Shown: positions 30,015 through 52,933 of the stretch, piece after piece
Position numbering within the stretch: position 1 is the stretch's first letter
Layout of the letters: each line of letters starts with the position of its first letter
NCBI GenBank assembly: GCA_046335555.1
Contig: JBKDHA010000023.1
Location: 1,153-65,152, forward strand
Length of the DNA: 64,000 nt
Reading direction: 5' to 3'
Origin: Bacteroidota bacterium
GTDB lineage: Bacteria > Bacteroidota > Bacteroidia > Palsa-965
Made by a program: the position numbers and the translations under genes
The notes under the pieces: generated by a model
The model's database searches: none
The model's input: only the letters and a program-made list of their open reading frames with translations
What the model was told of the DNA's origin: nothing

Positions 30015-30091
30015 ATTAAACTTTCCGCAACATCCTGCAAAAAGAGAGCCGCACAAGTTTGTGCAGCTCTCATAACATCAATCAAATAACA

Positions 30092-30883
30092 TTATTCTTT
30101 TTCAGCTTCTTCTTCCGGCTGCGGAATCGACTTCTTGGGGAAGTTGAACAAAACGCTGGTCAAAATCGGTAAGCCGAAAATTAGAACTGTGAGAATTGAG
30201 ATATACACATCTGCATCATGCGCGAGGAAATTGCTTACCGGATGCTTGGGATAGAAGTGCTCAATCAGCGAGAACAGCAGCTTAAAGCCCAAAATACCAA
30301 TTACAACAAAGGCTGATGTTTCAAGAAATGTATAGCGTTCCATAAGCTTTACAAAAGCCTGCGCCACAAAACGCATCGCCAGAATGCCTATGAATACACC
30401 TACCCAAATCAGCACAAGGTTTTTGCTGAATGCAACGGCTGCAAAAACATTGTCGATGGAGAATGCAAGATCCATTAATTCAACAAGTGCAACCGTAGCC
30501 CAGAATTGTCCCATCCAACCAACGGTAGCGCGATAAAGCCAATTCGATTTCTTGTCGAGTGTATCATCATCTTTTTCAGGCGTCATTTTACCTTTAAAAT
30601 AATCAAATACAAGATAAAGCAGGTAAAGTCCGCCAAGTGGTTTCAGCCACCAGATTTTGATGAGCCATGCGGCAAACAATAAACACAAACCGCGAAATAC
30701 ATACGCACCGATAATGCCATATTTCAACGCTTTGTTGCGCTGCTCTTTTGGCAAATCCATTACCATTGTAGCCAATACAGCAGCATTGTCAACCGAAAGC
30801 AAACTTTCGATGATAACCAGATTGCCAATTACCGCCAGGGCCGGCAGCGGGTTATTTATAATTTCCTGAATATACTCTTGCAT
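30092..30883 (-). CDS. terC: TerC-family integral membrane protein
   Basis: 263 aa polytopic membrane protein with the paired TerC signature motifs LSVDNAAVLA and FSIDNVFAAVA. Confidence 0.85.
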   Translation of the reverse strand: MQEYIQEIINNPLPALAVIGNLVIIESLLSVDNAAVLATMVMDLPKEQRNKALKYGIIGAYVFRGLCLLFAAWLIKIWWLKPLGGLYLLYLVFDYFKGKMTPEKDDDTLDKKSNWLYRATVGWMGQFWATVALVELMDLAFSIDNVFAAVAFSKNLVLIWVGVFIGILAMRFVAQAFVKLMERYTFLETSAFVVIGILGFKLLFSLIEHFYPKHPVSNFLAHDADVYISILTVLIFGLPILTSVLFNFPKKSIPQPEEEAEKE

Positions 30884-30907: not shown

Positions 30908-32437
30908 TTAATTAGCTACTAATTGAATTACAACAAGCCTTCCGCCTTCTTCGGCCGAAAGCAGCAACTTCTTGCCGTCGGTAAGTTCTACCATTTCTTT
31001 CGGGGCAATGAGTTTGTCTTCTGTAAGGTCTTTAAGTCCGCTCATCGTTTGGTTGACCAGCATCCATTTTCCGCCGTGAAAAACGAAATAGCCAACCGGC
31101 TTGCGCTGTTCGGGTGTCAGTTTTTCGTTGGGTGCAATGTTGCGGTTAATGTGCCAGGGATAAAGATACTGATTGTGATACACCATTACACGATGCTTTT
31201 CCTCCGTCCATTTTCCGGGCGAACGTTGTGCATACAAATTCAGAATCGGTAATTGTCCTTTATACACTGTGCCGCAGAACGGACAAGTAGGCCGTGTTGA
31301 ATTATCAAATACAAACCATTTCTGATCGCATTTCGGGTTTTGACAGGGCTGCATCAAATCAACTGTTTTGATAAGTGCATTTTCCCAGTCGTCGGCTGTT
31401 GGACGCTGCATTGGATTATGCAAACCGGTGATGAAGGCATCGTCAAACAGCTTTTTCAGATACGGGCCGGTTATGGTGTACGGAATCTTGTTGACGTCGG
31501 CCCAGGGCAATTGCGTTGGCTTTACCTGATTGAGCTTCGGGCGGTTGGTGGCATCAGTAGGATGCTCGACAAACAAAGCTTTTTGTCCCATCGAAAGCTC
31601 TTCGTCTTTCTGCGCATCGAGGTCATTCACTTTTCCGCCGCGCAACGGGTGACGGTAAAGCAAGTACATATAAATCATTACAGCCAGCGCATGCCGGTCG
31701 GTATTGATTGACGGGAGTTTGCGGCCAGCATCTGTTTTAGGCAGATGCTTTGTAGCCATAACTTCAGGCGCAATAAAATCGGGTGTGCCAATTACATCAG
31801 GCGGAAATTTTCCGGGAACTACAAGTCCGTCGATATCAATTATGGCTGCATTGCCGGTCATCGGATCAATCAATACATTTTTGTACGAAAGATCAGAATG
31901 CGCCAAACCGGCAGCGTGCATTCGTCGCACTGCGCGTGCAATACGTAAACAAATCAGCACATACTTGAACCAATCGCTCAGTTCACGCTTATCGAGATGC
32001 AGTTTGAAAGCAGGATTGCGAAACTGCGCGGCTGCAAACCATTTGCCTTCTTTTTCTTTCCCGGCAATACTTGCAATTTGTGCAGCAGCAGCATTGTAGC
32101 CATACGTAAAGAAAAAATGCTTCTGGTAAACCGGAGCAACAATTCCGATTTTTCCGTTGTACTCAACTACCTTGGTAGGCCAGCAATACAGGTCTTTCCA
32201 GTAATCGCCGCCGGCCTGATTGAAGATGCGTTCGCGGTAGGTATTTACAATTGTTGTAAGCCGTTCTTTCGTAGCATTATATTCTGATGTGCTCAGTTTA
32301 TCGCGAAAAAATGCAACTACATACGATTTGTCGGGACTGAAATACACATCCTTCAAACCGCCCTGCATCGGATCGCCGTTATCCACATACTGAACCTGTG
32401 AACCGTCGAGCGCATTTATTGTTATTGTCTTTGACAT
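30908..32437 (-). CDS. Atypical Ser/Thr protein kinase with C-terminal CxxC...CxxC zinc-ribbon and beta-rich tail (kinase of the TerY-P triad)
   Basis: Catalytic loop HAAGLAHSDLSYKNVLID (HxDxxxxN), activation segment IDIDGL ... GTPDFIAPEV (DFG-like ... APE). A Cys cluster CQNPKC-x14-CPFC follows, then a ~100-aa tail. Confidence 0.75.
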   Translation of the reverse strand: MSKTITINALDGSQVQYVDNGDPMQGGLKDVYFSPDKSYVVAFFRDKLSTSEYNATKERLTTIVNTYRERIFNQAGGDYWKDLYCWPTKVVEYNGKIGIVAPVYQKHFFFTYGYNAAAAQIASIAGKEKEGKWFAAAQFRNPAFKLHLDKRELSDWFKYVLICLRIARAVRRMHAAGLAHSDLSYKNVLIDPMTGNAAIIDIDGLVVPGKFPPDVIGTPDFIAPEVMATKHLPKTDAGRKLPSINTDRHALAVMIYMYLLYRHPLRGGKVNDLDAQKDEELSMGQKALFVEHPTDATNRPKLNQVKPTQLPWADVNKIPYTITGPYLKKLFDDAFITGLHNPMQRPTADDWENALIKTVDLMQPCQNPKCDQKWFVFDNSTRPTCPFCGTVYKGQLPILNLYAQRSPGKWTEEKHRVMVYHNQYLYPWHINRNIAPNEKLTPEQRKPVGYFVFHGGKWMLVNQTMSGLKDLTEDKLIAPKEMVELTDGKKLLLSAEEGGRLVVIQLVAN

Positions 32438-32457: not shown

Positions 32458-33888
32458 TCAGTAAAGTACGGCAATAGTACGATCATCGTGATTGCCCGGC
32501 GACCAGAAATCCATCCAACTCAGTAATTGAGTTGCTGCATTTTCGTTTTCAGGTGCAAACTGAACGGCAGCGCCATCAGCATTTTCGCCGCCGAGGTCTT
32601 TCCAGAGTTCATGCCATTTTTCGATGCGGCCGAGATTGGCATCGGTTTGAAATTTTGGATCTGTAATACCGTCGCTCATCAAAATAATAGCTGTAAAATC
32701 AGATACGATTCTGAAACCAATGCGTTTGTAGAACGAATTATCGGCAAAAATTTCGGGCATCGTCAGGAAGCGTGTTTGTCCGGCAAACTCTCCACCATCA
32801 GGCGTTCCGAGCACATTTATTTCATTATCGTCGGCACGATAAATTCCCATGCCTCCGTCGCCTACCATAAACGACATTACACTGTAACCGAAATCGAATT
32901 TGCGAAGCAAAACAAAGAGCAGTGTAGTCGAAAAGTCTTTCAGTTTTACCTCTGTGCCGGATTCGGTTGCTGCTGCGGCTGCAAAATTGGCAATCTGCTG
33001 ATGAACTTCAAACGGTGCTTTGCTGAACTTTTGCGTAAGAAACTCGTTGAGCGCATTTTTACTGGCTTCGTCTTTCAGGTTGTGGTAAGCAGTAATTATA
33101 TCATCCAGCTGTTTGTATTCATCAGCAGAAATGTTTTTGAAATAGTTCACCACACCATCACAGGCAATCTTCGATCCTTTGCGCGAAAACTTTGCACTTC
33201 CTGCTCCGTCGGCAACAGCAATTAATGCATAACCTGTTTGCTCATCGAAGAAGAACCCAAAATCATCATCGCGGAAAATACCTTCATGTGCGTGACTGCG
33301 TCCGCGTTTTGAGGCAACAACCAATTGATGCCCGAGTATTGCTGCCGATGTACATGTTTCATCATCTTTCCAGTACGGCGCATCGGTTGGAGACGGAATA
33401 TTTTTCCAAAGTTTTTTCGGATCCGGATTAATCACGAGCGAAATTTCCTTCTCGTGTTTGGCTTCGGTATTGGTTTTTACATCAAGTGTAAAAATCATTT
33501 TTACCCGGAACTCTCCTTGTTCAAGCGGTGTGCCTGAAATTGTGCCTGTAGCCGGATCGTAAATGATGCCGAGGCTTTGCGGGAATTCGAGATGAAAACT
33601 TTTTATTTTTTCGAGACCATATTTCGGCAGCGAAAATACTTGCGAGTAAGCTTTGTCAACCGTGCCGTTTGGCAGTTGCAGCAGTTTCTCGCGAATGTTG
33701 CTCAGTGCAATGTTTTCTTCCCAGTTCATAATAAGCGTTTCTGCGGTTGATGAAATCAGCCGGCATTGTTCAATTACTTCTGCACTGTCGATATATGAAT
33801 CGAGCAGGGCAGAGTGCTTGTCGGTGATTTCAACATTGCGCTGTTTGAGCAGTTGCGTGATGTATAAATGGCGTTGCGGTTTTTCCAT
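32458..33888 (-). CDS. PP2C-family Ser/Thr protein phosphatase with ~180-aa N-terminal extension containing a putative Ig-like (He_PIG-type) domain
   Basis: PP2C motifs SKRGRSHAHEG, IAVADGAGS, TTLLFVLL, VGDGGMG, ILMSDGITD, NHDDRTIAVL. The N-terminal DPATGTISGTPLEQGEF resembles a putative Ig domain. Confidence 0.75.
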   Translation of the reverse strand: MEKPQRHLYITQLLKQRNVEITDKHSALLDSYIDSAEVIEQCRLISSTAETLIMNWEENIALSNIREKLLQLPNGTVDKAYSQVFSLPKYGLEKIKSFHLEFPQSLGIIYDPATGTISGTPLEQGEFRVKMIFTLDVKTNTEAKHEKEISLVINPDPKKLWKNIPSPTDAPYWKDDETCTSAAILGHQLVVASKRGRSHAHEGIFRDDDFGFFFDEQTGYALIAVADGAGSAKFSRKGSKIACDGVVNYFKNISADEYKQLDDIITAYHNLKDEASKNALNEFLTQKFSKAPFEVHQQIANFAAAAATESGTEVKLKDFSTTLLFVLLRKFDFGYSVMSFMVGDGGMGIYRADDNEINVLGTPDGGEFAGQTRFLTMPEIFADNSFYKRIGFRIVSDFTAIILMSDGITDPKFQTDANLGRIEKWHELWKDLGGENADGAAVQFAPENENAATQLLSWMDFWSPGNHDDRTIAVLY

Positions 33889-33896: not shown

Positions 33897-34946
33897 TTAG
33901 CCCTGAGCCGAGTTAATATCCATACGGCCTTCGCCAAATCCATAGCGGCCCTGATTTCCGCACCATGGACAGGTACTTACTTCCTCGTTTCCGCAGCAGT
34001 GAATTTTACCGCACTGGCAAATACTTAAACCATATTGATTTCCGCACGAGGGACAAGTTGGCGCGCCCATAATTTCATCGGTACCAACTTTGTTGGATGC
34101 AGCATTTTCATCGCAGTAATCGAAGTACGATGAATCTACTAAGTAAGCACCAACAAGCCGATATACTAAGCTGTTCATTTCCATACCGCCAACCATTGTA
34201 GGTTGTGTGGTGCGGCGATATTTAATGAGATAAGGTTTTTGCGAATGCTGACATTTTCCGGTAAACACCGTGAAGTTGTGATCGAACCGCGGCTTTGGCG
34301 GCATTTCACGAGGATCAAGTTTTGAAATTACAGCTTCGTCAGGCTTTGAAAGCTCAAAGCCGGTACCGCCGGTTTCAACACTCATGCTGCTGCTTTTGAT
34401 AGAAGCAGTGACCCATTTGAAAAACGATTTGTATTGGTTTACAGATGTGTTTTTAAACATAAACACATTTTCCGTTAACTGCTGAAGTACTTGCAAATCG
34501 GCTTCTTCGCCAAACGAAACAGCCACCATGCTTGATTTCGGAGCCCAGTTTTTTTTCCACTCATTCATGGCCACCTGTGTATCATCGGTAGGCACACCAT
34601 CGGTAAACAAAAACACAATTGGTTTCCAATCGCCTTTTTGTTCGGCGGTGGTTTGTATGGTGTTTTTGCGCAGTTCGTACATCAGATGCCCGAGACCATT
34701 TCCCAGCGAAGTTCCGCCGCCAATAGGGAAGCGGGGCGGGTAGAAGGTTATAATTTCTTGAAGCGGAACCAACGTGCGAGCTTGACCAGCAAACACAACA
34801 ATGGAAATATGAACCGTTTCAAGTGCATACGGATCTTCTTTCAACGCTTTAATAATCATCGCCAAACCTTCTTCCACCATTTGAATAGGCTCGCCAATCA
34901 TCGACTCAGAGATGTCGATCAGGAAGTAAATCGGAAGTCGTCTCAT
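33897..34946 (-). CDS. TerY-like von Willebrand factor A (vWA) protein with C-terminal Cys-rich TerY-C metal-binding domain
   Basis: MIDAS motif FLIDISESM (DxSxS) and FLFTDGVPTDD. The ~140-aa C-terminal extension carries CPSCGNQYGLSICQCGKIHCCGNEEVSTCPWCG. Confidence 0.8.
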   Translation of the reverse strand: MRRLPIYFLIDISESMIGEPIQMVEEGLAMIIKALKEDPYALETVHISIVVFAGQARTLVPLQEIITFYPPRFPIGGGTSLGNGLGHLMYELRKNTIQTTAEQKGDWKPIVFLFTDGVPTDDTQVAMNEWKKNWAPKSSMVAVSFGEEADLQVLQQLTENVFMFKNTSVNQYKSFFKWVTASIKSSSMSVETGGTGFELSKPDEAVISKLDPREMPPKPRFDHNFTVFTGKCQHSQKPYLIKYRRTTQPTMVGGMEMNSLVYRLVGAYLVDSSYFDYCDENAASNKVGTDEIMGAPTCPSCGNQYGLSICQCGKIHCCGNEEVSTCPWCGNQGRYGFGEGRMDINSAQG

Positions 34947-34966
34947 GCAAATCGTTTTATTATCGG

Positions 34967-35236
34967 TTAGCGAAAAACAGACAGCAACAGCAGTAAAATA
35001 ACCAGCAAGATAAACTGTGCTGTATCTATTGCCAGCCCCTGTCCGAGCTGTGTTGGTTTAAAAGCTTTGCGCAGGAGCCGGAGTATAGGTTCAAGAATTT
35101 TTTCTATGAACATAAACTTCTTCAGTGCCTGCGGGTGCATTCTGTTTTTATACGGATACAGTTTTGAGTAGAGGAATAAACCAATAATCAGAAACTGTGC
35201 TGCAATTGAAATAATTAATCCTATCAAACCCATCAA
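34967..35236 (-). CDS. Small two-TM membrane protein, YggT-family-like
   Basis: 89 aa with two hydrophobic helices flanking FIEKILEPILRLLRKAFKP..GQGLAIDTAQFILLV, which resembles the YggT motif F..EP.L.P.R...P..GG.D.SP. The start overlaps the stop of the upstream vWA gene (ATGA). Confidence 0.45.
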   Translation of the reverse strand: MMGLIGLIISIAAQFLIIGLFLYSKLYPYKNRMHPQALKKFMFIEKILEPILRLLRKAFKPTQLGQGLAIDTAQFILLVILLLLLSVFR

Positions 35237-35868
35237 ATCACCATGTTAATTTCATCGGGCGGCGGTGGCAGTACAAGCTGCTCGGTTGAGTTTACACTTT
35301 GATTGCCTGTACCAATTGATGCCGATACCCACTTGAAAAATGAAGTAAGCGTATTGCTGTCGGCTGTATCGAGATGCACAACAGTGTCTGTAATTTCTTT
35401 GAGGAAACTGTCTTGTGCTGATGCACCAGCTGCGCAGGCAACAACCATTGCAAAGTTGTGCTGTCTGATTTTGGGCACCATTTCGCGGAACAGCGCAAGA
35501 TCCGAAGGCTTTCCGTCGGTCATCAGAAACAGCAGCGGCCGCCAGTCGCCTTTATCATCGCCAACGGCTGTTTTCATTTCGCGACGCATAACGTTGAGCA
35601 AAAGTTCCAATGCTGCGCCCATGTTTGTTGGTCCTGAATCAGGCGTTGTAATTTCGGGCAGCAGCAGTGATTCAAGATCGGTAAGCGGAACAATCTGCTT
35701 CACTTCACGGTCAAACGTAATCAGGCTCATCCACACTGTTTCCAGAGCATACGGATCCTGGCGGAGTTTGGAAAGCAACACCTGCAAACCGTTATTCACG
35801 GCATGGATTGGTTCGCCTTTCATGGAGCCCGAAGTATCGAGCAAGAGATAAACGGGTAATCGTCTCAA
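35233..35868 (-). CDS. TerY-like vWA domain protein (paralog 2, no TerY-C tail)
   Basis: MRRLPVYLLLDTSGSMKGEPIHAV MIDAS DxSxS motif and LFLMTDGKPSD. 211 aa. Confidence 0.8.
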   Translation of the reverse strand: MRRLPVYLLLDTSGSMKGEPIHAVNNGLQVLLSKLRQDPYALETVWMSLITFDREVKQIVPLTDLESLLLPEITTPDSGPTNMGAALELLLNVMRREMKTAVGDDKGDWRPLLFLMTDGKPSDLALFREMVPKIRQHNFAMVVACAAGASAQDSFLKEITDTVVHLDTADSNTLTSFFKWVSASIGTGNQSVNSTEQLVLPPPPDEINMVI

Positions 35869-35888
35869 AGCAATAACTAATTATGCTG

Positions 35889-36527
35889 TTAAACTACAAT
35901 GTTAACTTCGGGCGGCGGCGGCGGCAATTCATTAATGCCACCAACTTCGGTGCCTGAGTTTTCTACTTTCTGACTGCCGGTGCTGATTGAAGCCGACACC
36001 CATTTGAAGAATGCTTTGATGGTTGATGAATCAGCAGTATCAAGTCCAACTACAACATCCGTAACTTGTTTGAGAATGCTGGTATCGGCTCCTGAACCTG
36101 CAGCGCATGCAACGATTACGCCGGTTTTACGCTTCTTCAGCTCGGCAAGTCCGTTTTGCCATTGGTCTGTCGGACTTCCGTCGGTCATGATAAAAATGAG
36201 CGGTTTCCAATCGCCTTTTGCTTCGGCAGTTCCGCGGGCTACTTCGCGGTCGATGCATTGTGCAAGAAGGTTTAATCCTTCGCCCAAAGCTGTAGTGCCG
36301 GTGGCGCGAATTTCCTGCATTTGGAATGAAGCCAGATCAGTGAGCGGAATCAACTGACGTGCGGCTGAGTCGAATGTAATTACACTGATGTAAGCCGTTT
36401 CAAGTGCATGCGGATCTTGGCGAAGTGTTGAGATCAAAACTTGTACGCCATTCTTCACAGCCTCAATCGGCTCGCCGGTCATTGAGCCCGAAGTATCGAG
36501 CAAAAGGTAAACAGGTAATTTTCGCAT
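35889..36527 (-). CDS. TerY-like vWA domain protein (paralog 3, no TerY-C tail)
   Basis: MRKLPVYLLLDTSGSMTGEPIEAV and IFIMTDGSPTD. 212 aa, about 50% identical to paralog 2. Confidence 0.8.
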   Translation of the reverse strand: MRKLPVYLLLDTSGSMTGEPIEAVKNGVQVLISTLRQDPHALETAYISVITFDSAARQLIPLTDLASFQMQEIRATGTTALGEGLNLLAQCIDREVARGTAEAKGDWKPLIFIMTDGSPTDQWQNGLAELKKRKTGVIVACAAGSGADTSILKQVTDVVVGLDTADSSTIKAFFKWVSASISTGSQKVENSGTEVGGINELPPPPPEVNIVV

Positions 36528-36618: not shown

Positions 36619-37170
36619 TTAGTTGTAGCGGGCTAAATAGTCGCCGAGTCCGCCTTTCATGCCCATGCCAACAGCTTCAAACTTCCATTCAGCACCGCGC
36701 TTGTAGATACGGCCAAACTCAACGGCTGTTTCAATTGAGAAGTCTTCGTCAAGCTCATATTTCACCAATTCAGCACCCGAAGCATCAGCAATGCGGATGA
36801 ATGAATTACGAACCTGTCCGAAATTCTGGCGGCGTGTATCGGCATCGTGAATGGTAACTACAATACATATTTGTGTAACACGCTGATCGATGCGTGAAAG
36901 GTCAACAAGAACCTGCTCATCATCACCATCGCCATCGCCGGTCTTGTTGTCGCCGGTATGTGTAACAGCACCGTCGGGCGAGTTGGCATTGTTGTAAAAA
37001 ATAAAAAACTCATCGGCAGGAATTTTTCCGGCTTCGGTAAGCATAAACACCGAAGCATCAAGATCGAAAGCTTCGCCTGAGGCTGATGAATTGGTATCCC
37101 AGCCAAGACCGATGGTGAATTTTTGCGCATTAAGGGTTTCGCGCTGCCCTTTCTGAAGATTAATTGCCAT
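36619..37170 (-). CDS. terD: TerD-family tellurium-resistance/stress protein (Ca-binding TerD domain)
   Basis: MAINLQKGQ...GLGWD...FDLDASVFML...DEFFIFYNN...GDNKTGDGDGDDEQV...VVTIHDA...RRQNFGQV matches my memory of plasmid R478 TerD along the full length. Confidence 0.9.
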   Translation of the reverse strand: MAINLQKGQRETLNAQKFTIGLGWDTNSSASGEAFDLDASVFMLTEAGKIPADEFFIFYNNANSPDGAVTHTGDNKTGDGDGDDEQVLVDLSRIDQRVTQICIVVTIHDADTRRQNFGQVRNSFIRIADASGAELVKYELDEDFSIETAVEFGRIYKRGAEWKFEAVGMGMKGGLGDYLARYN

Positions 37171-37990
37171 GATGTGTATGAATATGTTGTTGAATAGTAT
37201 GGAGGTTAGTTCGGTATTCGTTCATCAGGTGATAATTATTTCCGTAAGCAAGATCACAAAGACGAAGTAAAAATTCAGGTGGCACATTTTCGAGCAGCAA
37301 CTGAAGGTCATTTGATCCGGTACTCAGAAGGAATTTTATCACGCGGGTATTAAAAGTAAAGATTTTCCCCCGAATGAGTTCCAGCAAACTGCTTACATCT
37401 TTTACCTCGCTGTAGTTCAGTACATTTTCAAACTCAGGGGCAATTGATGTATTAACCAGTTCAGCGAAATAGAGAAACATAAAATTCCCTTCAATACTCA
37501 GTCGCTCAATTTGCTGTTTCAGTACAAGTTCATGACTTCCGGTAATGCGTATATCGTCGAGCAGCAATACATTTCGGTTACTCAGAAAAACCTTGTCGAT
37601 GTGATACGTTCCTTGCGTAATAAGGTTAAACCGCTCTTCAAAACTCAGATTTCCGTAATCAATGCTATATGTTTTATAACGGTGAATGCGTGATTCGAGC
37701 AGCGATGGTTTACCCGAAGCAGCCAGAAACCGATTGATTTCGCGCACAAAATACTTCATCATTGCGCACGACGCAGTTGGAATGAAGTCATAAGGACTTG
37801 GAACCGCAACTGTTTGAGTTTCGCCGGTGAGTAGTTGTTTGTGTGTTTCAATAAAGCCTCGCGCAAGCGCAATTCCGAAGTTTTCGGCTTCGGTTTCATC
37901 ACCAAATTTGAAACGGCTGTATGCCTCTGCAGAAAACGATAAATCTGAAGCAGAGTTAATTTTATGCAGCGAAAATGAACTGAAACTCAT
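37160..37990 (-). CDS. Ter-operon-associated phosphoribosyltransferase-like protein (PRTase fold with C-terminal extension)
   Basis: PRPP-binding-type motif NVLLLDDIRITGSHE (hydrophobic x4, DD, x, TG). 276 aa, overlapping the terD start by 11 nt and the HAD stop by 4 nt. Confidence 0.7.
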   Translation of the reverse strand: MSFSSFSLHKINSASDLSFSAEAYSRFKFGDETEAENFGIALARGFIETHKQLLTGETQTVAVPSPYDFIPTASCAMMKYFVREINRFLAASGKPSLLESRIHRYKTYSIDYGNLSFEERFNLITQGTYHIDKVFLSNRNVLLLDDIRITGSHELVLKQQIERLSIEGNFMFLYFAELVNTSIAPEFENVLNYSEVKDVSSLLELIRGKIFTFNTRVIKFLLSTGSNDLQLLLENVPPEFLLRLCDLAYGNNYHLMNEYRTNLHTIQQHIHTHHGN

Positions 37991-38682
37991 AACTGAAATA
38001 AAATACGCAGCGAAGGTACTTCTTTATCATACAATAAACTCCGAAAACCGAAGTCTAACGCACCTTTAACATCTGCAATCGGGTTATCGCCGGTATGCAA
38101 TATCTGCTCTTTATTTAAAGTCTTTATTGTGCTGATATTATTGTAAGCACTTGCAAAAAAATCGGGCGATGGTTTGGCTGCACCATGTTCATCAGAATAC
38201 AACTGGAAATTCATGTATTCAGCAATGCCCAGTTGGTCAAGTCTTTTGCGCAGAGTACGGCCTTTTATAAAGCCTGTATTGCTGAGTAAACTGATGGTGA
38301 TATTGCTGCTGCGAAGTTCTTCAAACACTTCATGCGTATCAGCATTCAGTAAGCGGGGAGGATGCTGAAAAAACAGCGCTTCCATTTCTTCATAAAAAGC
38401 AGAGAGCTGCCCGGCTGTTACTTCATCCGCATTTTTGCTGAGGGCATTCAGTGCAAGAATCAGTAAACTTTCGTAGTGCGCAGTTTGTCCGCACATCACA
38501 CTGATATGATCACACAAACGGTCGAAATGCCGCAGTGTAGCCGATACTTCATTCAGCGACTGAGTCAAACCAAAACGGGATGCAAGCAATGCATCCCGTT
38601 TTGGTTTAAACTCAGGATCAGAAGCAATCAGCGTCATCCATAAATCAAATGAAATATGGTGTATGCCGCTGCTTTTTATCAT
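37987..38682 (-). CDS. HAD-superfamily hydrolase (phosphatase)
   Basis: Motif I ISFDLWMTL (DxDx[TV]L) and motif IV ILHTGDNPIADVKGA. 231 aa, translationally coupled to the flanking genes. Confidence 0.7.
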   Translation of the reverse strand: MIKSSGIHHISFDLWMTLIASDPEFKPKRDALLASRFGLTQSLNEVSATLRHFDRLCDHISVMCGQTAHYESLLILALNALSKNADEVTAGQLSAFYEEMEALFFQHPPRLLNADTHEVFEELRSSNITISLLSNTGFIKGRTLRKRLDQLGIAEYMNFQLYSDEHGAAKPSPDFFASAYNNISTIKTLNKEQILHTGDNPIADVKGALDFGFRSLLYDKEVPSLRILFQL

Positions 38683-39356
38683 TGATAAACGTAGTCACGA
38701 AGAATTTCGAGGAAATTATCGGTAGGCTGCGGATTGCCGAGCGCGCGGAATTTCCAGGTGCCGTCTTTGCGGTAAACCTCAGCAAAAATCATAGCTGCAG
38801 CGCCGCCCATGCTTTCATCACCTGAAATATTGTAGCGGGCAATTTCCTTGCCGCGAGCATCTACAGCGCGAATGAAGGCATTCTCGATCATCGAGAAGTT
38901 CTGGTTTTTCTGGCGGCCCTGATAAATGGTTACCATAAACAGCACTTTCGAATAACGCTGATCGAGTGAATCGAGTTTGGCTACAATTTGCTCATCATCG
39001 CCATCGCCTGCACCTGTGCGGTTATCGCCGGTAAGCCAGATGTGGCCGCTCGGGTGACGCTGCGAATTAAAGTAAATTACATCGCTTTCAAAAAGCGCAA
39101 TCTTCATGCCGTTGGCATGTTGCACTGTGCGGCCAAGATTAGCTACTTTATCGTTCGAATCGAGCAGGAAAGCAACGGCATCAAGATCATAATCTTCGCC
39201 TTTTTTTCCGCCAAACAGTTTGCCGAGGAATCCGCCGCCGCTTTGTTTGCGCATATCCCAGCCCAAACCAATGGTAACGGTTGAAAGGTCAAAACTTTCG
39301 CCTTTGTCGTTTTTGCGAAGGTCAATGGTTTGACCCTTCTGAAGGTTAATTGCCAT
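38679..39356 (-). CDS. TerD-family protein with a Gly/Lys-rich insertion
   Basis: MAINLQKGQTIDL...GLGWD..., with the insert GGGFLGKLFGGKKGEDYDLDAVAFLL and the motif GDNRTGAGDGDDEQI. Confidence 0.85.
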   Translation of the reverse strand: MAINLQKGQTIDLRKNDKGESFDLSTVTIGLGWDMRKQSGGGFLGKLFGGKKGEDYDLDAVAFLLDSNDKVANLGRTVQHANGMKIALFESDVIYFNSQRHPSGHIWLTGDNRTGAGDGDDEQIVAKLDSLDQRYSKVLFMVTIYQGRQKNQNFSMIENAFIRAVDARGKEIARYNISGDESMGGAAAMIFAEVYRKDGTWKFRALGNPQPTDNFLEILRDYVYQ

Positions 39357-39380: not shown

Positions 39381-39956
39381 TTATTTGATCACCTGTCCGG
39401 TGTAATATTTCTCAACGAAGAACGAAAGATCTTTTTGATAACCAATGCCCGAAGCTTCAAACTTCCAGCCGTTATCGCGGCGGTAGAGACGACCGAATTC
39501 AACAGCTGTTTCAATCGAAAAATCTTCTCCTAATTCATACTTGCAAATTTCGCTGCCGTCGCGGTTGTCAACGATACGAATGTATGAATTGCGAACCTGT
39601 CCGAAATTTTGGCGGCGCTCAACGGCACTGTGAATGGTTACCACAAAAAGTAATTCCTGAATATCATTACTTACTTTCTGGAGGTCAACCATGATCGTTT
39701 CATCATCACCTTCGGCACTGTTTCCGCCTGTCGGATCATCCCCGGTATGATGCAGCGCACTGTCTGGCGAATCGGGCTGATTGTAAAAAATGAAATGCCC
39801 CTCAGAGGGAATCATTCGGTTTCCGTTCAGCATAAATGCTGAAGCATCAAGATCGAAATCGTGACCGGTTCCTTCGTTCGGATTCCAGCCAAGACCTACG
39901 CTCAGATTCGACAGTGAAATGTCAACCTTTTGGCCTTTTTGAAGATTAATAGCCAT
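39381..39956 (-). CDS. TerD-family protein (first gene of the operon)
   Basis: MAINLQKGQKVDISL..GLGWNPNEGTGHDFDLDASAFML...HTGDDPTGGNSAEGDDETI...VVTIHSAVERRQNFGQV. Confidence 0.9.
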   Translation of the reverse strand: MAINLQKGQKVDISLSNLSVGLGWNPNEGTGHDFDLDASAFMLNGNRMIPSEGHFIFYNQPDSPDSALHHTGDDPTGGNSAEGDDETIMVDLQKVSNDIQELLFVVTIHSAVERRQNFGQVRNSYIRIVDNRDGSEICKYELGEDFSIETAVEFGRLYRRDNGWKFEASGIGYQKDLSFFVEKYYTGQVIK

Positions 39957-43369: not shown

Positions 43370-44149
43370 ATGCTGCTAAGTGCAATCATAATATTACTTT
43401 CTGCTCTGGTGAGCGGTTTGCTGATGCTGGTGTTTCGTGTCCCGCGAAAACCGTTGCGTTTGCTGCTGGCGTTTAGCGGAGCATTTTTGTTTGCACTGAG
43501 TCTGCTGCATCTTATTCCGGAATTATACGAACAGGGTGGTTCATATACAGGATTGTGGATTCTGGTCGGTTTTCTGATTCAGGTTTTGCTGGAATATCTC
43601 ACAACCGGTGTCGAACATGGTCACGATCTTGCGCACACACATTCGCATCATAATCACGAAGAACATGATCATGCGCACGATCACTCGCATGTGCACCATA
43701 TAGTACCTGTTGGTGTGCTTGTGGGTTTGTGTTTGCATGCGTTTCTGGAAGGAATGCCGCTGGGAACTAAAGTTGCCGGCGATTCGCTTTTTCCCCCGTT
43801 TGTGTTGGGAATTGTGTTGCATAATATTCCGATAGCCATTGCTTTTGCAGGTTTGATGCTGCACATTGGTTTGAGCAGAAAGCGTATTGTACTTAATTTA
43901 TTGCTGTTTGCATTAATGACTCCCGCTGGTATGTTGGCGAGTTATTTTATAGGTATGCAGCTTAGCGGCGGACTATCGCCTTATTTCCATGCGATAACGG
44001 CAATAGTGGTTGGGATTTTTCTGCATATATCCACAACTATTTTGTTTGAATCGTCGGAAAACCACCGGTTCAACGCAATCAAGTTTTTTATCATATTGCT
44101 GGGAGCCGGAGCTGCCTGGCTCATAACACTGGGAGCTGCTCATGGCTGA
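43370..44149 (+). CDS. ZIP-family divalent metal (zinc) transporter
   Basis: Polytopic membrane protein with a His-rich loop HDLAHTHSHHNHEEHDHAHDHSHVHH and ZIP-like HNIPIAIA / HxxPEG-type helices. Confidence 0.8.
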   Translation: MLLSAIIILLSALVSGLLMLVFRVPRKPLRLLLAFSGAFLFALSLLHLIPELYEQGGSYTGLWILVGFLIQVLLEYLTTGVEHGHDLAHTHSHHNHEEHDHAHDHSHVHHIVPVGVLVGLCLHAFLEGMPLGTKVAGDSLFPPFVLGIVLHNIPIAIAFAGLMLHIGLSRKRIVLNLLLFALMTPAGMLASYFIGMQLSGGLSPYFHAITAIVVGIFLHISTTILFESSENHRFNAIKFFIILLGAGAAWLITLGAAHG

Positions 44150-45378: not shown

Positions 45379-46347
45379 ATGAAAACAATTGCTGTATTTA
45401 CTTCGGGAGGCGATTCGCCGGGTATGAATGCCTGTGTGCGTGCGGTGGTTAGAACTGCATTGAGCAAAGAACTGAATGTGTTTGGCATCCGCTACGGCTA
45501 CGAGGGAATGATAGATGGTGATATTGTGAAGATGGATGCATCATCAGTAGCCAACATCATTCACCGCGGCGGCACGATCCTGAAAACCGCTCGCAGCAAG
45601 CGTTTCATGACCAACGAAGGTATGCTTGCTGCCAAGGCTCAATTAGAAAAGCACGGTATCGAGGGCATTGTAGCAATTGGCGGAGATGGGACTTTCAGAG
45701 GTGCAGTGGCTTTTTCTGAAGTGAGCAGCATTCCGTTTATCGGCTGCCCGGGCACCATAGACAACGATCTGGCAGGTACAGATTACACGATTGGTTTCGA
45801 CACTGCTATCAATACTGCGGTAGAAGCTGTTGACCGCATTCGAGATACAGCCGAATCTCACAACCGGGTTTTTATTGTTGAAGTAATGGGTCGCGATGCC
45901 GGACTGCTCGCGTTATACTGTGCAATAGGGGCAGGGGCAGAAGGCGTTTTGATTCCGGAAACACCTAACGATTTGCAGGTGGTGCTGAACAGGCTGGCCA
46001 ATTCGCGGAGCAACAAACAATCAAAAATTATTGTAGTTGCCGAAGGCGATGAAGCCGGTGGGGCATTTAAAGTTGGCGAGGCAGTAAAAGTGCAATTTCC
46101 TGAACTGGATGTGCGAATTACTGTGCTCGGACATATACAACGTGGCGGAGCACCAACCTGTATGGAACGCGTAAATGCAAGCCGCATGGGATATGCTGCT
46201 ATTGAAGCATTACTTGCCGGAAAATCCAATGAAATGATTGGTATTATCAACAATAAAATTGCTTACACTCCTTTCAAAGATGCTGTAAAGCATCTACTTG
46301 AACCTGATAAATCATTGTTGAGAATGATTAGTGTTTTGGCTAAATAA
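45379..46347 (+). CDS. pfkA: ATP-dependent 6-phosphofructokinase
   Basis: MKTIAVFTSGGDSPGMNA, IGGDGTF, GCPGTIDND and MGRDAGLLAL motifs. Confidence 0.9.
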   Translation: MKTIAVFTSGGDSPGMNACVRAVVRTALSKELNVFGIRYGYEGMIDGDIVKMDASSVANIIHRGGTILKTARSKRFMTNEGMLAAKAQLEKHGIEGIVAIGGDGTFRGAVAFSEVSSIPFIGCPGTIDNDLAGTDYTIGFDTAINTAVEAVDRIRDTAESHNRVFIVEVMGRDAGLLALYCAIGAGAEGVLIPETPNDLQVVLNRLANSRSNKQSKIIVVAEGDEAGGAFKVGEAVKVQFPELDVRITVLGHIQRGGAPTCMERVNASRMGYAAIEALLAGKSNEMIGIINNKIAYTPFKDAVKHLLEPDKSLLRMISVLAK

Positions 46348-46446
46348 TTTTGACTTTCTCATTTATTGATTTATGTTTGCGTCGATTTTCAGGATAGAAA
46401 AATAGTTTTTTCAGTTAATTATTAATCTTTTTTACTACTTATTCTT

Positions 46447-46995
46447 ATGAGAAAAAGCAGAGCAATTAAGCTCAATGATGATGTTGTGGTCAGTAAATTA
46501 TATCTGATCCGTGGTGTTAAAGTTATGCTGGACAGTGATCTGGCTGAACTTTATAAAGTAACAACAGGCAATCTTAATAAAGCTGTAGCAAGAAACATTA
46601 AACGGTTTCCTCCCGATTTTATGTTCAGGTTAAGCCGTGAAGAAATGACAGAACTCGAAAACAGCTCTTCTAATAAAAACTGGGGAGGTAAAAGACAATG
46701 CCCCTTTGTTTTTACAGAACAAGGCGTAGCAATGTTATCCGGTGTTCTGAGCAGCGACAGAGCCATTGAGGTTAACATTCAGATAATGAGAGTTTTCTCT
46801 AAAGTCCGTCAATTATTGATTGATACTACATTATTGGGATTTGAACTTGAAGAAATAAAACAAAAACTCAATGCGCATGATAAAAGTATTATGTCAATAA
46901 TTGAATATATTTATAGTTCACGAAGTAAATCTAAAACAACCATAAAGCGAAAACAAATAGGGTATAAAATACCATCTAAAAGTGCTAAAACTTGA
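46447..46995 (+). CDS. ORF6N (KilA-N-related) domain protein
   Basis: IRGVKVMLDSDLAELYKVTTGNLNKAVARNIKRFPPDFMFRLSREE resembles the ORF6N domain found in antirepressor-like proteins. Confidence 0.65.
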   Translation: MRKSRAIKLNDDVVVSKLYLIRGVKVMLDSDLAELYKVTTGNLNKAVARNIKRFPPDFMFRLSREEMTELENSSSNKNWGGKRQCPFVFTEQGVAMLSGVLSSDRAIEVNIQIMRVFSKVRQLLIDTTLLGFELEEIKQKLNAHDKSIMSIIEYIYSSRSKSKTTIKRKQIGYKIPSKSAKT

Positions 46996-47027
46996 TATTC
47001 CAATTTGGAATATCAAGTTTGTAATTG
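46987..47027 (+). terminator. Rho-independent terminator overlapping the ORF6N stop codon
   Basis: Perfect 13-bp inverted repeat CTTGATATTCCAA-T-TTGGAATATCAAG, preceded by AAAA and followed by TTTGTAATTGTTT. Confidence 0.65.
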
Positions 47028-47360
47028 TTTGATTATTAGGCTTTTATTGTAGTTGTTGTTGTTGTTAATGTTTTTGTGGAGAAGATAATGCGTGTTAAAA
47101 ATATTTATTTTTCTTTCAAAGAATAAGCAATGCTTTATTGATAATATGATAGTTATTTAGTGTCTTAAATAGTATGGATTTTTCGTGATTAAAATTGATT
47201 TTTAGTCTGTATGGGTAAAATAAGTAGAGGGTTTGGGAATAGTATTAGAAAACAGCTCCATCGTATAATAATCAAGGGTGTATTTATCATAGAATCAAAA
47301 TGATTACAAGTTCTTGAAGGCAGTTATTTTCTAACTTTGTCAGGCGCTAAAAGTGCGAAT

Positions 47361-48347
47361 ATGCAACTGAGTAAACTTACCGGACTTAATATTATACTTA
47401 CAGGTGGAGCCGGATTCATTGGTTCAAACCTTGCTGCACGGTTGGCATCATATGATGCCCGGGTAACTGTAATTGATAATTTACTTACCGGCACTTATGA
47501 TAATATCTCCGGTCTTGTCAAAAACGGTAAAATTAAATTTGTTGAGGCTGATATACGTGATGCAAAAGTTTGCGCAAAATTTATGCAAGGAGCAGATGTT
47601 GTTTTGCATCAGGCTGCACTTGGTTCGGTTCCGCGCAGTATAGCCGAGCCGCTGAATACACATTCCATAAATATCGAAGGGTTTGTAAATGTATTGGAGC
47701 AAACGCGTTTGGCCGGAATAACGCGGTTTATATATGCATCATCGTCGTCTGTTTATGGGAATGATCTATCATCACCCAAAACGGAATTAAATACAGGGGT
47801 ACCTCTTTCACCTTATGCGTTAACCAAATCAGTAAATGAGCAGTATGCACATTTGTATGCCAGGGTTTACGGAATGGAAATAATCGGATTGCGGTATTTT
47901 AATGTGTTTGGACCGAATCAGCAACCCGGCGGGCCATACGCAGCTGTAATCCCGCTGTTTATTACACAAATGCTTGCGGGTAAAACTCCCGTCATTTTTG
48001 GCGACGGAGCTACAACCCGCGATTTTACTTATGTTGATAATGTAGTACAAGCGAATCTGGCAGCATTATGTATTGATAAACTTCCTGAAAATGTGCTTCC
48101 GGTTTTTAATATTGCCTGTGGAGCCACAACGAGCTTACTTGAGTTATATCAACTTATAGCTGCTGCAACCGGTTTTGAGCAGCAACCCGTTTTTATGCCC
48201 GAACGCAAAGGGGATATTCGCCAAAGTTTTGCATCTGTCGATGCTGCAGCAAATTATTTAGGCTATCAGCCTGAGGTGGATTTACGCAACGGAATCGAAA
48301 AGACAGTTGCCTGGTTCAGAGCTAATCCGCAGTTAATCAAGCTGTAA
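47361..48347 (+). CDS. NAD-dependent sugar-nucleotide epimerase/dehydratase (extended SDR, UDP-GlcNAc/UDP-Glc 4-epimerase-like)
   Basis: ILTGGAGFIGSNL Rossmann motif and the YALTK catalytic YxxxK. 329 aa from an internal Met. Confidence 0.85.
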   Translation: MQLSKLTGLNIILTGGAGFIGSNLAARLASYDARVTVIDNLLTGTYDNISGLVKNGKIKFVEADIRDAKVCAKFMQGADVVLHQAALGSVPRSIAEPLNTHSINIEGFVNVLEQTRLAGITRFIYASSSSVYGNDLSSPKTELNTGVPLSPYALTKSVNEQYAHLYARVYGMEIIGLRYFNVFGPNQQPGGPYAAVIPLFITQMLAGKTPVIFGDGATTRDFTYVDNVVQANLAALCIDKLPENVLPVFNIACGATTSLLELYQLIAAATGFEQQPVFMPERKGDIRQSFASVDAAANYLGYQPEVDLRNGIEKTVAWFRANPQLIKL

Positions 48348-52849: not shown

Positions 52850-52933
52850 TTAATAATTTTGTTGCAAAAATAGAAATTATATGCGTGTCACAGCCGCTAT
52901 CAATATCAGAGCCGCAGATCTGCTCAAAACATC

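What the first reader, a model, noticed from the sequence alone, without database searches (positions are those of the whole stretch)
33897..36527. Triplicated TerY-like vWA genes, only one carrying the Cys-rich TerY-C zinc-ribbon tail
Three consecutive MIDAS-containing vWA proteins (MRRLPIYFLIDISESM, MRRLPVYLLLDTSGSM, MRKLPVYLLLDTSGSM) are roughly 50% identical over the vWA domain. Only the promoter-distal copy has the ~140-aa extension with CPSCG...CQCGKIHCCG...CPWCG. Tandem divergence like this suggests sub-functionalisation. One reading is two 'bare' vWA partners plus one metal-sensing or zinc-ribbon adaptor. Another is stoichiometric components of a vWA-based assembly regulated by the adjacent kinase and phosphatase.
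Basis: seen in the sequence. Interest (0 to 1): 0.55.

Follow-up and report, generated by a model that had tools for sequence, protein, structure and literature searches.

The report
Conserved TerY1-TerY2-TerY3 trio of Ter operon
The three vWA genes are real. They are the ancient, widely conserved TerY1/TerY2/TerY3 set of the bacterial Ter (tellurite-resistance-type) stress operon, already named in plasmids and in Pfam, so this is an ordinary new copy of a known but biochemically unstudied module.

Summary
On the minus strand, 35889-36527, 35233-35868 and 33897-34946 encode three homologous vWA proteins with intact MIDAS motifs. Only the last carries a full-length Pfam TerY_C domain (E 2.5e-42).

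The interpretation needs correcting. This is not a local tandem divergence. The same trio sits next to a PP2C phosphatase and a Ser/Thr kinase in several other places:
- about 2,300 enterobacterial plasmids, where the genes are named terY1, terY2 and terY3 (written "terY-CYXYW" in Klebsiella);
- 72 of 82 Bacteroidota-type loci examined;
- all three divergent metagenomic loci that had enough upstream context.

Each window copy groups with its own orthologue clade, including the IncHI2 plasmid genes (bootstrap 97, 93.5 and 100%). The triplication therefore predates the Bacteroidota/Proteobacteria spread.

Eight cysteines of TerY-C are invariant or nearly so (56-58 of 58 sequences from diverse family representatives). 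That fits two Cys4 metal sites.

The genes lie in a 12-gene Ter operon: three TerD, HAD, PRTase, TerY1, TerY2, a small YggT-like gene, TerY3, PP2C, kinase and TerC.

The most likely function is a phosphorylation-switched, metal-dependent vWA adaptor set, the known "TerY-P triad" hypothesis. No step of that mechanism has been shown.

Minor extras are a conserved YggT-like gene inside the trio in Bacteroidota and occasional MIDAS loss in TerY2. Novelty is low.

The parts
35889..36527 (-). TerY1 orthologue: 212-aa vWA protein with an intact MIDAS motif and a conserved C-terminal tail ELPPPPPEVNIVV
   Evidence: ORF. Pfam VWA E 2.3e-14. It is 69.5% identical to IncHI2 TerY1 and groups with the TerY1 clade at bootstrap 97%. 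MIDAS is conserved in 70 of 70 orthologues.
35233..35868 (-). TerY2 orthologue: 211-aa vWA protein with a TTG start, an intact MIDAS motif here, and the tail LPPPPDEINMVI
   Evidence: ORF. Pfam VWA E 5.2e-13. It groups with the TerY2 clade, which includes IncHI2 TerY2, at bootstrap 93.5%. MIDAS is conserved in 73 of 77 orthologues and fully lost in 4.
34967..35236 (-). Small 89-aa membrane protein of YggT type with two hydrophobic ends; it overlaps the TerY2 stop codon by 4 nt
   Evidence: ORF. Conserved in at least 57 distinct Bacteroidota loci. Pfam YGGT scores 24.9 bits here, below the cut-off of 27, but 13 of 17 orthologues match YGGT (best E 1.2e-7). Absent from IncHI2 plasmids.
34362..34946 (-). 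TerY3 vWA domain (residues 1-195) with an intact MIDAS motif (DISES...T79...D116)
   Evidence: Pfam VWA E 7.2e-13. AlphaFold2 model with mean pLDDT 80. Foldseek returns vWA-fold hits at probability 1.00. MIDAS is conserved in 82 of 82 orthologues.
33900..34283 (-). TerY-C domain of TerY3 (residues 222-349): a beta-strand subdomain followed by a Cys-rich part. Conserved Cys are C232, C298, C301, C310, C312, C317, C326 and C329.
   Evidence: Pfam TerY_C E 2.5e-42, full length. The eight Cys are conserved in 56-58 of 58 full-length sequences drawn from the 50%-identity family representatives. The two TCPxCGNQ knuckles are also a 23-nt direct repeat.
32458..33888 (-). PP2C-family Ser/Thr phosphatase (476 aa) with an N-terminal extension of about 190 aa
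   Evidence: Pfam PP2C_2 E 2.3e-36. It holds the same position after TerY3 in IncHI2 plasmids and in the Bacteroidota loci.
30908..32437 (-). Ser/Thr protein kinase (509 aa) with a C-terminal zinc ribbon (C-x4-C...CPFC), followed by a conserved domain of about 110 aa of unknown type
   Evidence: Pfam Pkinase E 9.5e-11. The ribbon Cys are invariant in 28 orthologues. The only solved-structure sequence matches are weak hits to zinc ribbons.
30092..30883 (-). TerC-family integral membrane protein (YkoY subfamily); last gene of the operon
   Evidence: Pfam TerC E 3.8e-53. NCBIfam TIGR03716 scores 250 bits against a cut-off of 138.5.
30044..30071 (-). Terminator-like hairpin (12-bp stem, then a T run) directly after TerC
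36619..37170 (-). TerD-domain protein (183 aa) immediately upstream of TerY1
   Evidence: Pfam TerD E 2.1e-71.
37160..37990 (-). PRTase_3 (ComF-like phosphoribosyltransferase) of the Ter-associated biosynthetic module
   Evidence: Pfam PF15610 E 1.5e-72.
37987..38682 (-). HAD-family phosphatase
   Evidence: Pfam Hydrolase and HAD_2. NCBIfam HAD subfamilies.
38679..39356 (-). TerD-domain protein (225 aa); TerX-like by best BLAST match
   Evidence: Pfam TerD E 1.6e-54. IncHI2 TerX is the best match to this paralogue.
39381..39956 (-). TerD-domain protein (191 aa); first gene of the operon
   Evidence: Pfam TerD E 4e-68.

Best explanation
The three genes are the TerY1, TerY2 and TerY3 (TerY-C) paralogues of a chromosomal Ter stress-response operon in an uncultured Bacteroidota bacterium.

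Shown:
- They are ancient paralogues, each orthologous to the gene in the same position in other Bacteroidota, in divergent metagenomic loci and in enterobacterial IncHI2 plasmids.
- All three keep a complete MIDAS metal site.
- TerY3 alone carries the TerY-C domain with eight conserved cysteines.
- The trio is always encoded with a PP2C phosphatase and a zinc-ribbon-bearing Ser/Thr kinase. Here it also sits with three TerD proteins, a PRTase/HAD pair and TerC in one tightly packed operon.

Inferred, following the published TerY-P triad hypothesis and the archaeal ArnB analogy:
- The three vWA proteins act together as MIDAS-dependent protein-binding adaptors.
- TerY3 is the copy coupled to the kinase/phosphatase pair. 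Its TerY-C domain holds two structural or sensing Cys4 metal (probably Zn) sites.
- Phosphorylation and dephosphorylation switch the assembly or partner binding of the TerY proteins. This passes a metal or envelope stress signal to the TerD/TerC part of the system.
For: Identity and homology:
- ORFs and domains are; pairwise and profile homology.

Same architecture elsewhere:
- The IncHI2 plasmid locus reads VWA, TerD (TerX), VWA, TerY-C, PP2C, kinase.
- 2,303 plasmid records match TerY3, with 6,805 matching places in all, about three per record.
- 72 of 82 sources carry exactly three vWA genes in the same order.
- The three divergent loci with upstream context (L082, L084, L086) each hold two bare vWA genes of 211-213 aa plus one vWA-TerY_C gene. 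L082 and L084 also show the PP2C and the kinase; the L086 contig ends before them.

Ancient orthology:
- The NJ tree gives three clades, each containing the IncHI2 orthologue, with bootstrap 97, 93.5 and 100%.
- The bare copies of the divergent loci also sort into the TerY1 and TerY2 clades.
- There is no long DNA-level repeat.

Metal sites:
- MIDAS is conserved in 70/70 TerY1, 73/77 TerY2 and 82/82 TerY3.
- The eight Cys are conserved in 56-58 of 58 sequences.

Operon structure:
- Gene overlaps or gaps of at most 24 nt, apart from one 91-nt gap, and a terminator after TerC.

Structure:
- The TerY3 model has pLDDT 80.
- The top Foldseek hit is ArnB (8s05_A), a vWA protein whose complex with ArnA is switched by kinase ArnC (PMC12852372) and which interacts with phosphatase PP2A (PMC7472852). 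TFIIH p44/Ssl1, a vWA protein with zinc fingers, also ranks high.

Literature:
- terY3Y2XY1W is named in PMC6885840 and 'terY-CYXYW' in PMC12054061.
- The TerY-P triad and its proposed metal-sensing phosphorylation switch are summarised in PMC11090510, citing Anantharaman et al. 2012.
Against: No step of the mechanism has been tested.
- There is no evidence here or in the papers read that the three TerY proteins bind each other, that any of them is a substrate of the kinase or phosphatase, or that TerY-C binds zinc.
- I could not inspect model coordinates, so the Cys geometry is unverified.
- The Foldseek matches to ArnB and p44 have TM about 0.37 and rmsd about 22 A over the full length. They rest mainly on the vWA domain.
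- TerY1 is absent from 7 Flavobacterium-type loci, and TerY2 has lost MIDAS in 4 loci. A strict obligatory 1:1:1 metal-dependent complex is therefore not universal.
Confidence: 0.85

Rival explanations
1. A recent, lineage-specific tandem triplication of one TerY gene in this genome. The copies are now diverging, and one has gained or kept a zinc-ribbon tail. This is the scenario the first reader implied.
For: The genes are adjacent, on the same strand and clearly homologous.
Against: Each copy is closer to its positional orthologue in other phyla than to its neighbours. For example, window TerY1 is 69.5% identical to IncHI2 TerY1 but 53% to window TerY2. The clade bootstraps are 97, 93.5 and 100%. 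The same trio occurs in about 2,300 plasmids and in 72 of 82 sources. DNA similarity is limited to short motif stretches.
Confidence: 0.02
2. The vWA, PP2C and kinase genes form a stand-alone anti-phage 'TerY-P' defence system of the Gao et al. 2020 type, which merely happens to lie next to Ter genes.
For: The component types are the same: TerY-like vWA, PP2C and Ser/Thr kinase. TerY-P-like modules have been shown to defend against phage (PMC11090510, citing Gao et al. 2020). The classical ter operon has been linked to phage resistance in older work (my own recollection, not checked here).
Against: None of the three vWA proteins nor the PP2C matches any PADLOC model. The kinase gives only weak generic kinase hits. 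The kinase carries a zinc ribbon rather than the OB fold of the defence-type module (PMC11090510). The module is embedded in a tight Ter operon with TerD, PRTase, HAD and TerC. The genes flanking the operon look like ordinary chromosomal ones: two SPOR-type-looking proteins downstream and a RidA-family (L-PSP) gene upstream, then an asparagine-synthase-like gene, a ZIP transporter and a phosphofructokinase-like gene (only the L-PSP and ZIP assignments were checked against Pfam, the rest I judged by eye).
Confidence: 0.08
3. Two of the three copies are redundant or decaying duplicates, and only TerY3 is functional.
For: Four TerY2 orthologues have lost every MIDAS residue, and seven loci lack TerY1.
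Against: TerY1 is the most conserved of the three, with 84% mean column identity and MIDAS intact in 70 of 70. Both short copies keep full length (211-213 aa) and specific conserved tails across phyla. Even the TerY2 genes that lost MIDAS remain intact ORFs.
Confidence: 0.03

Closest known systems
terY1 / terY2 / terY3 of the IncHI2 (R478-type) plasmid tellurite-resistance region terY3Y2XY1W-ZABCDEF, written 'terY-CYXYW' in Klebsiella
   Same: It has three TerY vWA genes: two of about 212 aa and one of about 346 aa with TerY-C. A PP2C and a zinc-ribbon kinase follow. Each window gene is the orthologue of one of them (PMC6885840, PMC12054061).
   Different: In the plasmids a TerD-family gene (terX) lies between terY1 and terY2; here a TerD gene precedes TerY1. 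The plasmids have no YggT-like gene between terY2 and terY3. In the plasmids TerC belongs to the separate terZABCDEF operon, whereas here a YkoY-type TerC follows the kinase directly. Protein identity is only 49-70%.
TerY-P triad (TerY vWA + PP2C phosphatase + Ser/Thr kinase with C-terminal zinc ribbon; Anantharaman, Iyer and Aravind 2012, as summarised in PMC11090510)
   Same: All three component types are present and adjacent. The kinase has the C-terminal zinc ribbon. The proposed function, a metal-sensing phosphorylation switch, is the mechanism adopted here.
   Different: The triads attached to CoCoNuT and other restriction-type systems usually have one vWA gene, or two that flank an ATPase gene. 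This Ter-linked form has three vWA genes, one with TerY-C.
ArnA/ArnB with kinase ArnC and phosphatase PP2A of Sulfolobus acidocaldarius
   Same: ArnB is a cytoplasmic vWA protein with a beta-rich C-terminal extension. Its complex with ArnA is switched from loose to tight by sequential phosphorylation of ArnB by ArnC (PMC12852372), and PP2A interacts with both proteins and affects the complex (PMC7472852). A zinc-finger element takes part in the ArnA/ArnB complex. ArnB is the best Foldseek hit of the TerY3 model (PMC6509490, PMC12852372).
   Different: There is no significant sequence relationship (E 0.028). In Arn the zinc finger is on the partner ArnA, together with an FHA domain, while in TerY3 the Cys-rich part is fused to the vWA protein. 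I found no FHA domain here. The Arn output is archaellum regulation.
TFIIH subunit p44/Ssl1 (vWA domain followed by zinc fingers)
   Same: It has the same domain logic, a vWA domain followed by a C-terminal Cys-rich zinc module acting as an assembly scaffold. It is among the top Foldseek hits over nearly the full length.
   Different: It is a eukaryotic transcription and repair factor. The full-length TM is only 0.37, there is no sequence similarity, and the zinc-finger type is different.

Membership tests
TerY-C-type TerY (vWA + Pfam PF15616) | N-terminal vWA domain with a complete MIDAS motif DxSxS...T...D | tested here: met
   Pfam VWA. D11, S13, S15, T79 and D116 are present. The model has a vWA fold.
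TerY-C-type TerY (vWA + Pfam PF15616) | C-terminal TerY_C domain above the Pfam gathering score, matched over its full length | tested here: met
   144.4 bits against a cut-off of 28.4, covering profile positions 1-129 of 129.
TerY-C-type TerY (vWA + Pfam PF15616) | Conserved cysteine set of the metal-binding domain | tested here: met
   C232, C298, C301, C310, C312, C317, C326 and C329 are present and conserved in 56-58 of 58 diverse family sequences.
TerY-C-type TerY (vWA + Pfam PF15616) | Actual metal (Zn) binding by the domain | not testable with these tools
   This needs metal analysis of purified protein.
TerY-P triad | TerY-like vWA gene adjacent to a PP2C phosphatase gene and a Ser/Thr kinase gene | tested here: met
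   TerY3, PP2C_2 (E 2.3e-36) and Pkinase (E 9.5e-11) are separated by gaps of 8 and 20 nt.
TerY-P triad | Kinase fused at its C-terminus to a zinc ribbon | tested here: met
   C-x4-C...CPFC is invariant in 28 orthologues. The only solved-structure matches are weak hits to zinc ribbons (COX5B, S27a/S31).
IncHI2 terY1/terY2/terY3 orthologous groups | Each window paralogue groups with the plasmid gene of the same type rather than with its neighbours | tested here: met
   NJ bootstrap support is 97, 93.5 and 100%. Whole-set monophyly holds.
Ter (tellurite-resistance-type) gene cluster | TerD-domain and TerC genes in the same cluster | tested here: met
   Three TerD genes and TerC lie in the same operon.
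Ter (tellurite-resistance-type) gene cluster | Confers tellurite, metal or phage resistance | not testable with these tools
   This is a phenotype only.
Ter (tellurite-resistance-type) gene cluster | TerB, TerZ/TerA/TerE/TerF and TerW as in terZABCDEF/terW | not tested
   None was seen in the 12-gene operon. The rest of the window was not scanned for them.
TerY-P anti-phage defence system (Gao et al. 2020, PADLOC models) | Proteins match the defence-system HMMs | tested here: not met
   No PADLOC hit for any vWA protein or the PP2C. The kinase gives only weak generic hits (PD-T4-6, mad6, MkoA).
YGGT family (small ORF 34967-35236) | Pfam PF02325 above the gathering score | tested here: inconclusive
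   The window protein scores 24.9 bits against a cut-off of 27. 13 of 17 orthologues match at E<0.01, best 1.2e-7.

The most novel reading that the evidence does not exclude
In Bacteroidota the TerY trio may be a membrane-tethered variant. In this reading the conserved YggT-like two-helix protein, encoded between TerY2 and TerY3 and translationally coupled to TerY2, anchors a TerY1/TerY2/TerY3 hetero-oligomer next to the TerC transporter. The conserved proline-rich C-terminal tails of TerY1 and TerY2 (ELPPPPxExNIVV) dock onto TerY3 or the kinase. TerY2 acts as a scaffold that does not need MIDAS, which would explain why it can lose all its metal ligands in some lineages. This would give the first concrete assembly model for why Ter systems keep three TerY proteins.
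Probability: 0.12. Interest if true: 0.45.

Novelty: already known. Interest (0 to 1): 0.15.

Why it matters
Ter clusters are common on virulence and resistance plasmids of Klebsiella, E. coli and Salmonella, and in many environmental bacteria. Their real function is still unclear. The TerY proteins, the phosphatase and the kinase have, as far as I found, never been studied biochemically.

This window adds nothing new in kind. It does show that the three-TerY set is an ancient unit kept across phyla, so the three copies are not interchangeable. It also points to genetically tractable Flavobacterium species (the same locus is in F. johnsoniae, L023) as a place to test what each copy does.

Tried and rejected
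- **Single-sequence AlphaFold2 of TerY3.** The model was unusable (pLDDT 34). The run with a 120-sequence alignment worked (pLDDT 80).
- **FHA domain in the kinase C-terminal region.** I tested whether the roughly 110 aa after the zinc ribbon is an FHA domain, which would mirror ArnA. Neither Pfam at E<=10 nor a profile search of PDB sequences supports it.
- **PPPP tails as remnants of TerY-C.** I tested whether the tails of TerY1 and TerY2 are homologous to the first strand of TerY-C. The hhalign alignments stop at residues 195-198, before the tail. Not supported.
- **PADLOC membership in the TerY-P defence system.** No hits.
- **Solved structure of TerY-C by sequence.** None found.
- **Primary source.** Anantharaman et al. 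2012 (PMC4104200) is not held in the library. Its content is cited only through PMC11090510.
- **A 3,544-aa hit to the TerY-C query (P0229).** It is a giant Ig-repeat protein and the match is spurious.
- **Bootstrap run.** The first attempt with Biopython's distance calculator timed out. I redid it with a numpy Kimura distance.
Full report
**Observation**

On the minus strand the window encodes three vWA proteins:
- 35889-36527, 212 aa, N-terminus MRKLPVYLLLDTSGSM;
- 35233-35868, 211 aa, TTG start, N-terminus MRRLPVYLLLDTSGSM;
- 33897-34946, 349 aa, N-terminus MRRLPIYFLIDISESM.

All three hit Pfam VWA. Only the 349-aa protein hits TerY_C (PF15616), over residues 222-349 and the whole 129-position profile, with E 2.5e-42.

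Pairwise BLASTP gives 53% identity between the two short copies (E 3e-83). The long copy is 43% (E 5e-55) and 36% (E 3e-43) identical to them. Profile-profile comparison gives probability 100%.

The MIDAS residues D11, S13, S15, T79 and D116 are invariant among the three.

- "About 50%" holds only for the short pair.
- The genes are not strictly consecutive, because an 89-aa ORF (34967-35236) lies between copies 2 and 3.
- The second Cys in "HCCG" is not a conserved ligand.

**Context**

The three genes sit in a tightly packed 12-gene minus-strand operon. The order is:
- TerD (39381-39956)
- TerD (38679-39356)
- HAD phosphatase (37987-38682)
- PRTase_3 (37160-37990)
- TerD (36619-37170)
- vWA1
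- vWA2
- the small ORF
- vWA3 with TerY-C
- PP2C phosphatase (32458-33888)
- Ser/Thr kinase (30908-32437)
- TerC of the YkoY subfamily (30092-30883)

Neighbouring genes overlap by 4-11 nt or are 8-24 nt apart, apart from one 91-nt gap before vWA1. A strong hairpin-plus-T-run follows TerC at 30071-30044.

The genes flanking the operon look like ordinary chromosomal ones. Two SPOR-type-looking proteins lie directly downstream. A RidA-family (L-PSP) gene lies directly upstream, followed by an asparagine-synthase-like gene, a ZIP transporter and a phosphofructokinase-like gene. Only the L-PSP and ZIP assignments were checked against Pfam; the rest I judged by eye.

The closest public sequences are a 100% identical contig in a MAG labelled Synechococcus and a 94% identical Bacteroidia MAG. 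All other close relatives are Bacteroidota, including Chitinophagaceae, Flavobacterium, Sphingobacterium and Pontibacter.

**The arrangement is standard, not a local event**

A tblastn search of the TerY-C protein against 72,556 plasmids found 2,303 records. These hold 6,805 matching places, about three per record.

In an IncHI2 Salmonella plasmid the annotated order is terW, VWA (212 aa), TerD family (TerX), VWA (212 aa), TerY-C protein (346 aa), PP2C, kinase. The literature names this region terY3Y2XY1W-ZABCDEF (PMC6885840) and, in Klebsiella, "terY-CYXYW-ZABCDEF" (PMC12054061).

In the 80 genome loci retrieved with the TerY-C protein, I assigned ORFs by BLAST to the window proteins. The order vWA1 (212 aa), vWA2 (211 aa), usually the small ORF, vWA3-TerY-C (about 350 aa), PP2C, kinase, TerC appears almost everywhere.

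Counting those 80 loci plus the plasmid locus and the window gives 82 sources:
- 72 have exactly three vWA genes.
- 7 Flavobacterium-type loci have only copies 2 and 3.
- The remaining 3 are cut by contig ends.

Three divergent representatives of the TerY-C family, 32-37% identical in that domain, also show the pattern where the contig has enough upstream context. L082, L084 and L086 each carry two bare vWA genes of 211-213 aa plus one vWA-TerY_C gene. L082 and L084 also show the PP2C and the kinase. In L082 the TerY-C gene comes after the kinase, and the L086 contig ends before the kinase position.

**The triplication is ancient**

An NJ tree of 232 vWA domains gives three monophyletic groups, each containing the IncHI2 gene of the same type.

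On a 45-sequence subset, 200 bootstrap replicates recover the three groups in 97% (TerY1), 93.5% (TerY2) and 100% (TerY3) of replicates.

Window vWA1 is 69.5% identical to plasmid TerY1, compared with 53% to its own neighbour.

The bare copies of the divergent loci also sort by position into the TerY1 and TerY2 clades. Two of their three TerY-C copies join the TerY3 clade; the third sits on a long branch with ambiguous placement.

At the DNA level the three window genes share only short motif stretches, at most 158 nt at 73% identity. This rules out recent duplication or gene conversion.

Each clade has its own conserved signature, including the C-terminal tails ELPPPPxE(L/V)NIVV in TerY1 and LPPPPxE..VI in TerY2.

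**Metal-binding features**

MIDAS is intact in 70 of 70 TerY1, 82 of 82 TerY3 and 73 of 77 TerY2 orthologues. The four exceptions have lost all five ligands while remaining full-length ORFs.

An exhaustive search with the TerY-C region alone, against 1.84 billion representatives, found only 164 clusters (E <= 0.001). The full-length members are almost all 335-365 aa with the domain at the C-terminus, so TerY-C occurs essentially only as this vWA fusion.

Across 58 full-length sequences (57 representatives plus the window protein):
- C232, C298, C301, C312, C317, C326 and C329 are present in 58 of 58.
- C310 is present in 56 of 58.
- H316 and C318 are not conserved.

Eight conserved Cys include two CPxCG-type knuckles. 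These knuckles are also a 23-nt internal direct repeat. The pattern fits two Cys4 sites, one of them a zinc ribbon. This is an inference from the sequence pattern, because I could not examine model coordinates.

**Structure**

With a 120-sequence alignment, AlphaFold2 gives mean pLDDT 80 and pTM 0.79. The model has a vWA domain, then three long beta strands (225-269), then short strands through the Cys-rich part.

Foldseek against the PDB returns vWA domains at probability 1.00. The top hits that align over nearly the whole length are ArnB of Sulfolobus (8s05_A) and TFIIH p44/Ssl1.

ArnB is a vWA protein with a beta-sandwich extension. Its complex with ArnA, a zinc-finger plus FHA protein, is switched from loose to tight by sequential phosphorylation of ArnB by kinase ArnC (PMC12852372). 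The phosphatase PP2A interacts with both proteins (PMC7472852; see also PMC6509490). p44 is a vWA protein followed by zinc fingers.

Full-length TM scores are only about 0.37, with rmsd about 22 A. These are functional analogies, not evidence of family membership. No solved structure matches TerY-C by sequence.

**Mechanism**

What is shown is the gene content, the conservation and the orthology described above.

What is inferred follows the published TerY-P triad hypothesis of a metal-sensing, phosphorylation-dependent switch (Anantharaman et al. 2012, as summarised in PMC11090510) and the ArnB precedent. The three TerY proteins would be MIDAS-dependent adaptors that work together. TerY3, through TerY-C, would be the copy linked to the kinase/phosphatase pair. 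Phosphorylation would switch their assembly or partner binding and so couple a stress signal to the TerD/TerC part.

I put the identity of the module at about 0.95 and this mechanism at about 0.4.

**Rival explanations**

Three rivals were considered:
- A recent local triplication is refuted by the phylogeny.
- A stand-alone Gao-type TerY-P anti-phage system is unlikely. There are no PADLOC matches for the vWA proteins or the PP2C. The kinase has a zinc ribbon rather than an OB fold. The genes are embedded in a Ter operon.
- Decaying redundant copies are contradicted by strong conservation. TerY1 is the most conserved of the three, at 84% mean column identity.

**Comparison and novelty**

The module meets every sequence-testable criterion of four groupings: the TerY-C family, the TerY-P triad, orthology with IncHI2 terY1/2/3, and a Ter cluster. 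Proteins 99% identical to the window's TerY3 are already in public databases.

The finding is therefore an already known architecture. What remains open is the biochemistry of TerY proteins in general, and this window does not make that specially testable.

The small additions from this analysis are:
- explicit evidence that the trio is an ancient orthologous set;
- a conserved YggT-like gene inside the trio in Bacteroidota;
- lineage-specific MIDAS loss in TerY2 and loss of TerY1.

Interest score: 0.15.

Noticed in passing
window 34967-35236 (-): An 89-aa ORF lies between TerY2 and TerY3 and overlaps the TerY2 stop codon by 4 nt. It has two hydrophobic ends and a conserved motif GLFLYSKLLPYK...KPxQVGxGLxVDxxQ. 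It is conserved in at least 57 distinct Bacteroidota loci, and 13 of 17 orthologues match Pfam YGGT. It is absent from the enterobacterial plasmid version. I did not find a link between a YggT-type membrane protein and Ter systems in the papers read.
   Followed up: partly
L019 5113-5748, L072 9073-9708, L050 9311-9946, L077 9316-9951: Four TerY2 orthologues have replaced all five MIDAS ligands (ESGPR or DSGRK in place of DSSTD) yet remain full-length ORFs. TerY1 and TerY3 never lose MIDAS. This suggests TerY2 can work without its metal site.
   Followed up: partly
L025, L028, L036, L039, L052, L066, L078: Seven loci, six in Flavobacterium genomes and one (L039) in a Pedobacter MAG, have TerY2 and TerY3 but no TerY1. 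The rest of the operon is intact.
   Followed up: no
window 35889-35930 and 35233-35270 (-), C-termini of TerY1 and TerY2: The two short copies end in conserved proline-rich tails, ELPPPPPEVNIVV and LPPPPDEINMVI. These are kept from Bacteroidota to IncHI2 plasmids and divergent metagenomic loci. They look like a docking peptide. Profile alignment does not relate them to TerY3.
   Followed up: partly
window 30908-31360 (-), kinase C-terminus: After the kinase domain comes an invariant zinc ribbon (C-x4-C...CPFC). A conserved domain of about 110 aa follows, with no Pfam or PDB sequence match. An FHA-like identity was tested and not supported.
   Followed up: partly
window 33952-33974 and 34036-34058: A 23-nt direct repeat (87% identical, 84 nt apart) encodes the two knuckles TCPSCGNQ and TCPWCGNQ of TerY-C. 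This points to an internal duplication of the zinc-knuckle unit.
   Followed up: no
L002 (CALRTD020000039.1): The only 100% identical public contig belongs to a MAG labelled Synechococcus sp. UW140. Every other close relative is Bacteroidota (94% identity to a Bacteroidia MAG). The contig is probably mis-binned.
   Followed up: no
window 46000-48000 and 52000-56000: Two stretches have lower G+C (about 36%, against 45% elsewhere). Judged by eye from the translations only, their ORFs resemble polysaccharide-biosynthesis genes (epimerase, glycosyltransferases, methyltransferases, flippase-like protein). They are unrelated to the finding.
   Followed up: no
window 43370-44149 (+): A ZIP-family zinc transporter with a His-rich loop lies 3.4 kb upstream of the Ter operon on the other strand. 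Whether it is linked to the operon's predicted metal function is unknown.
   Followed up: no
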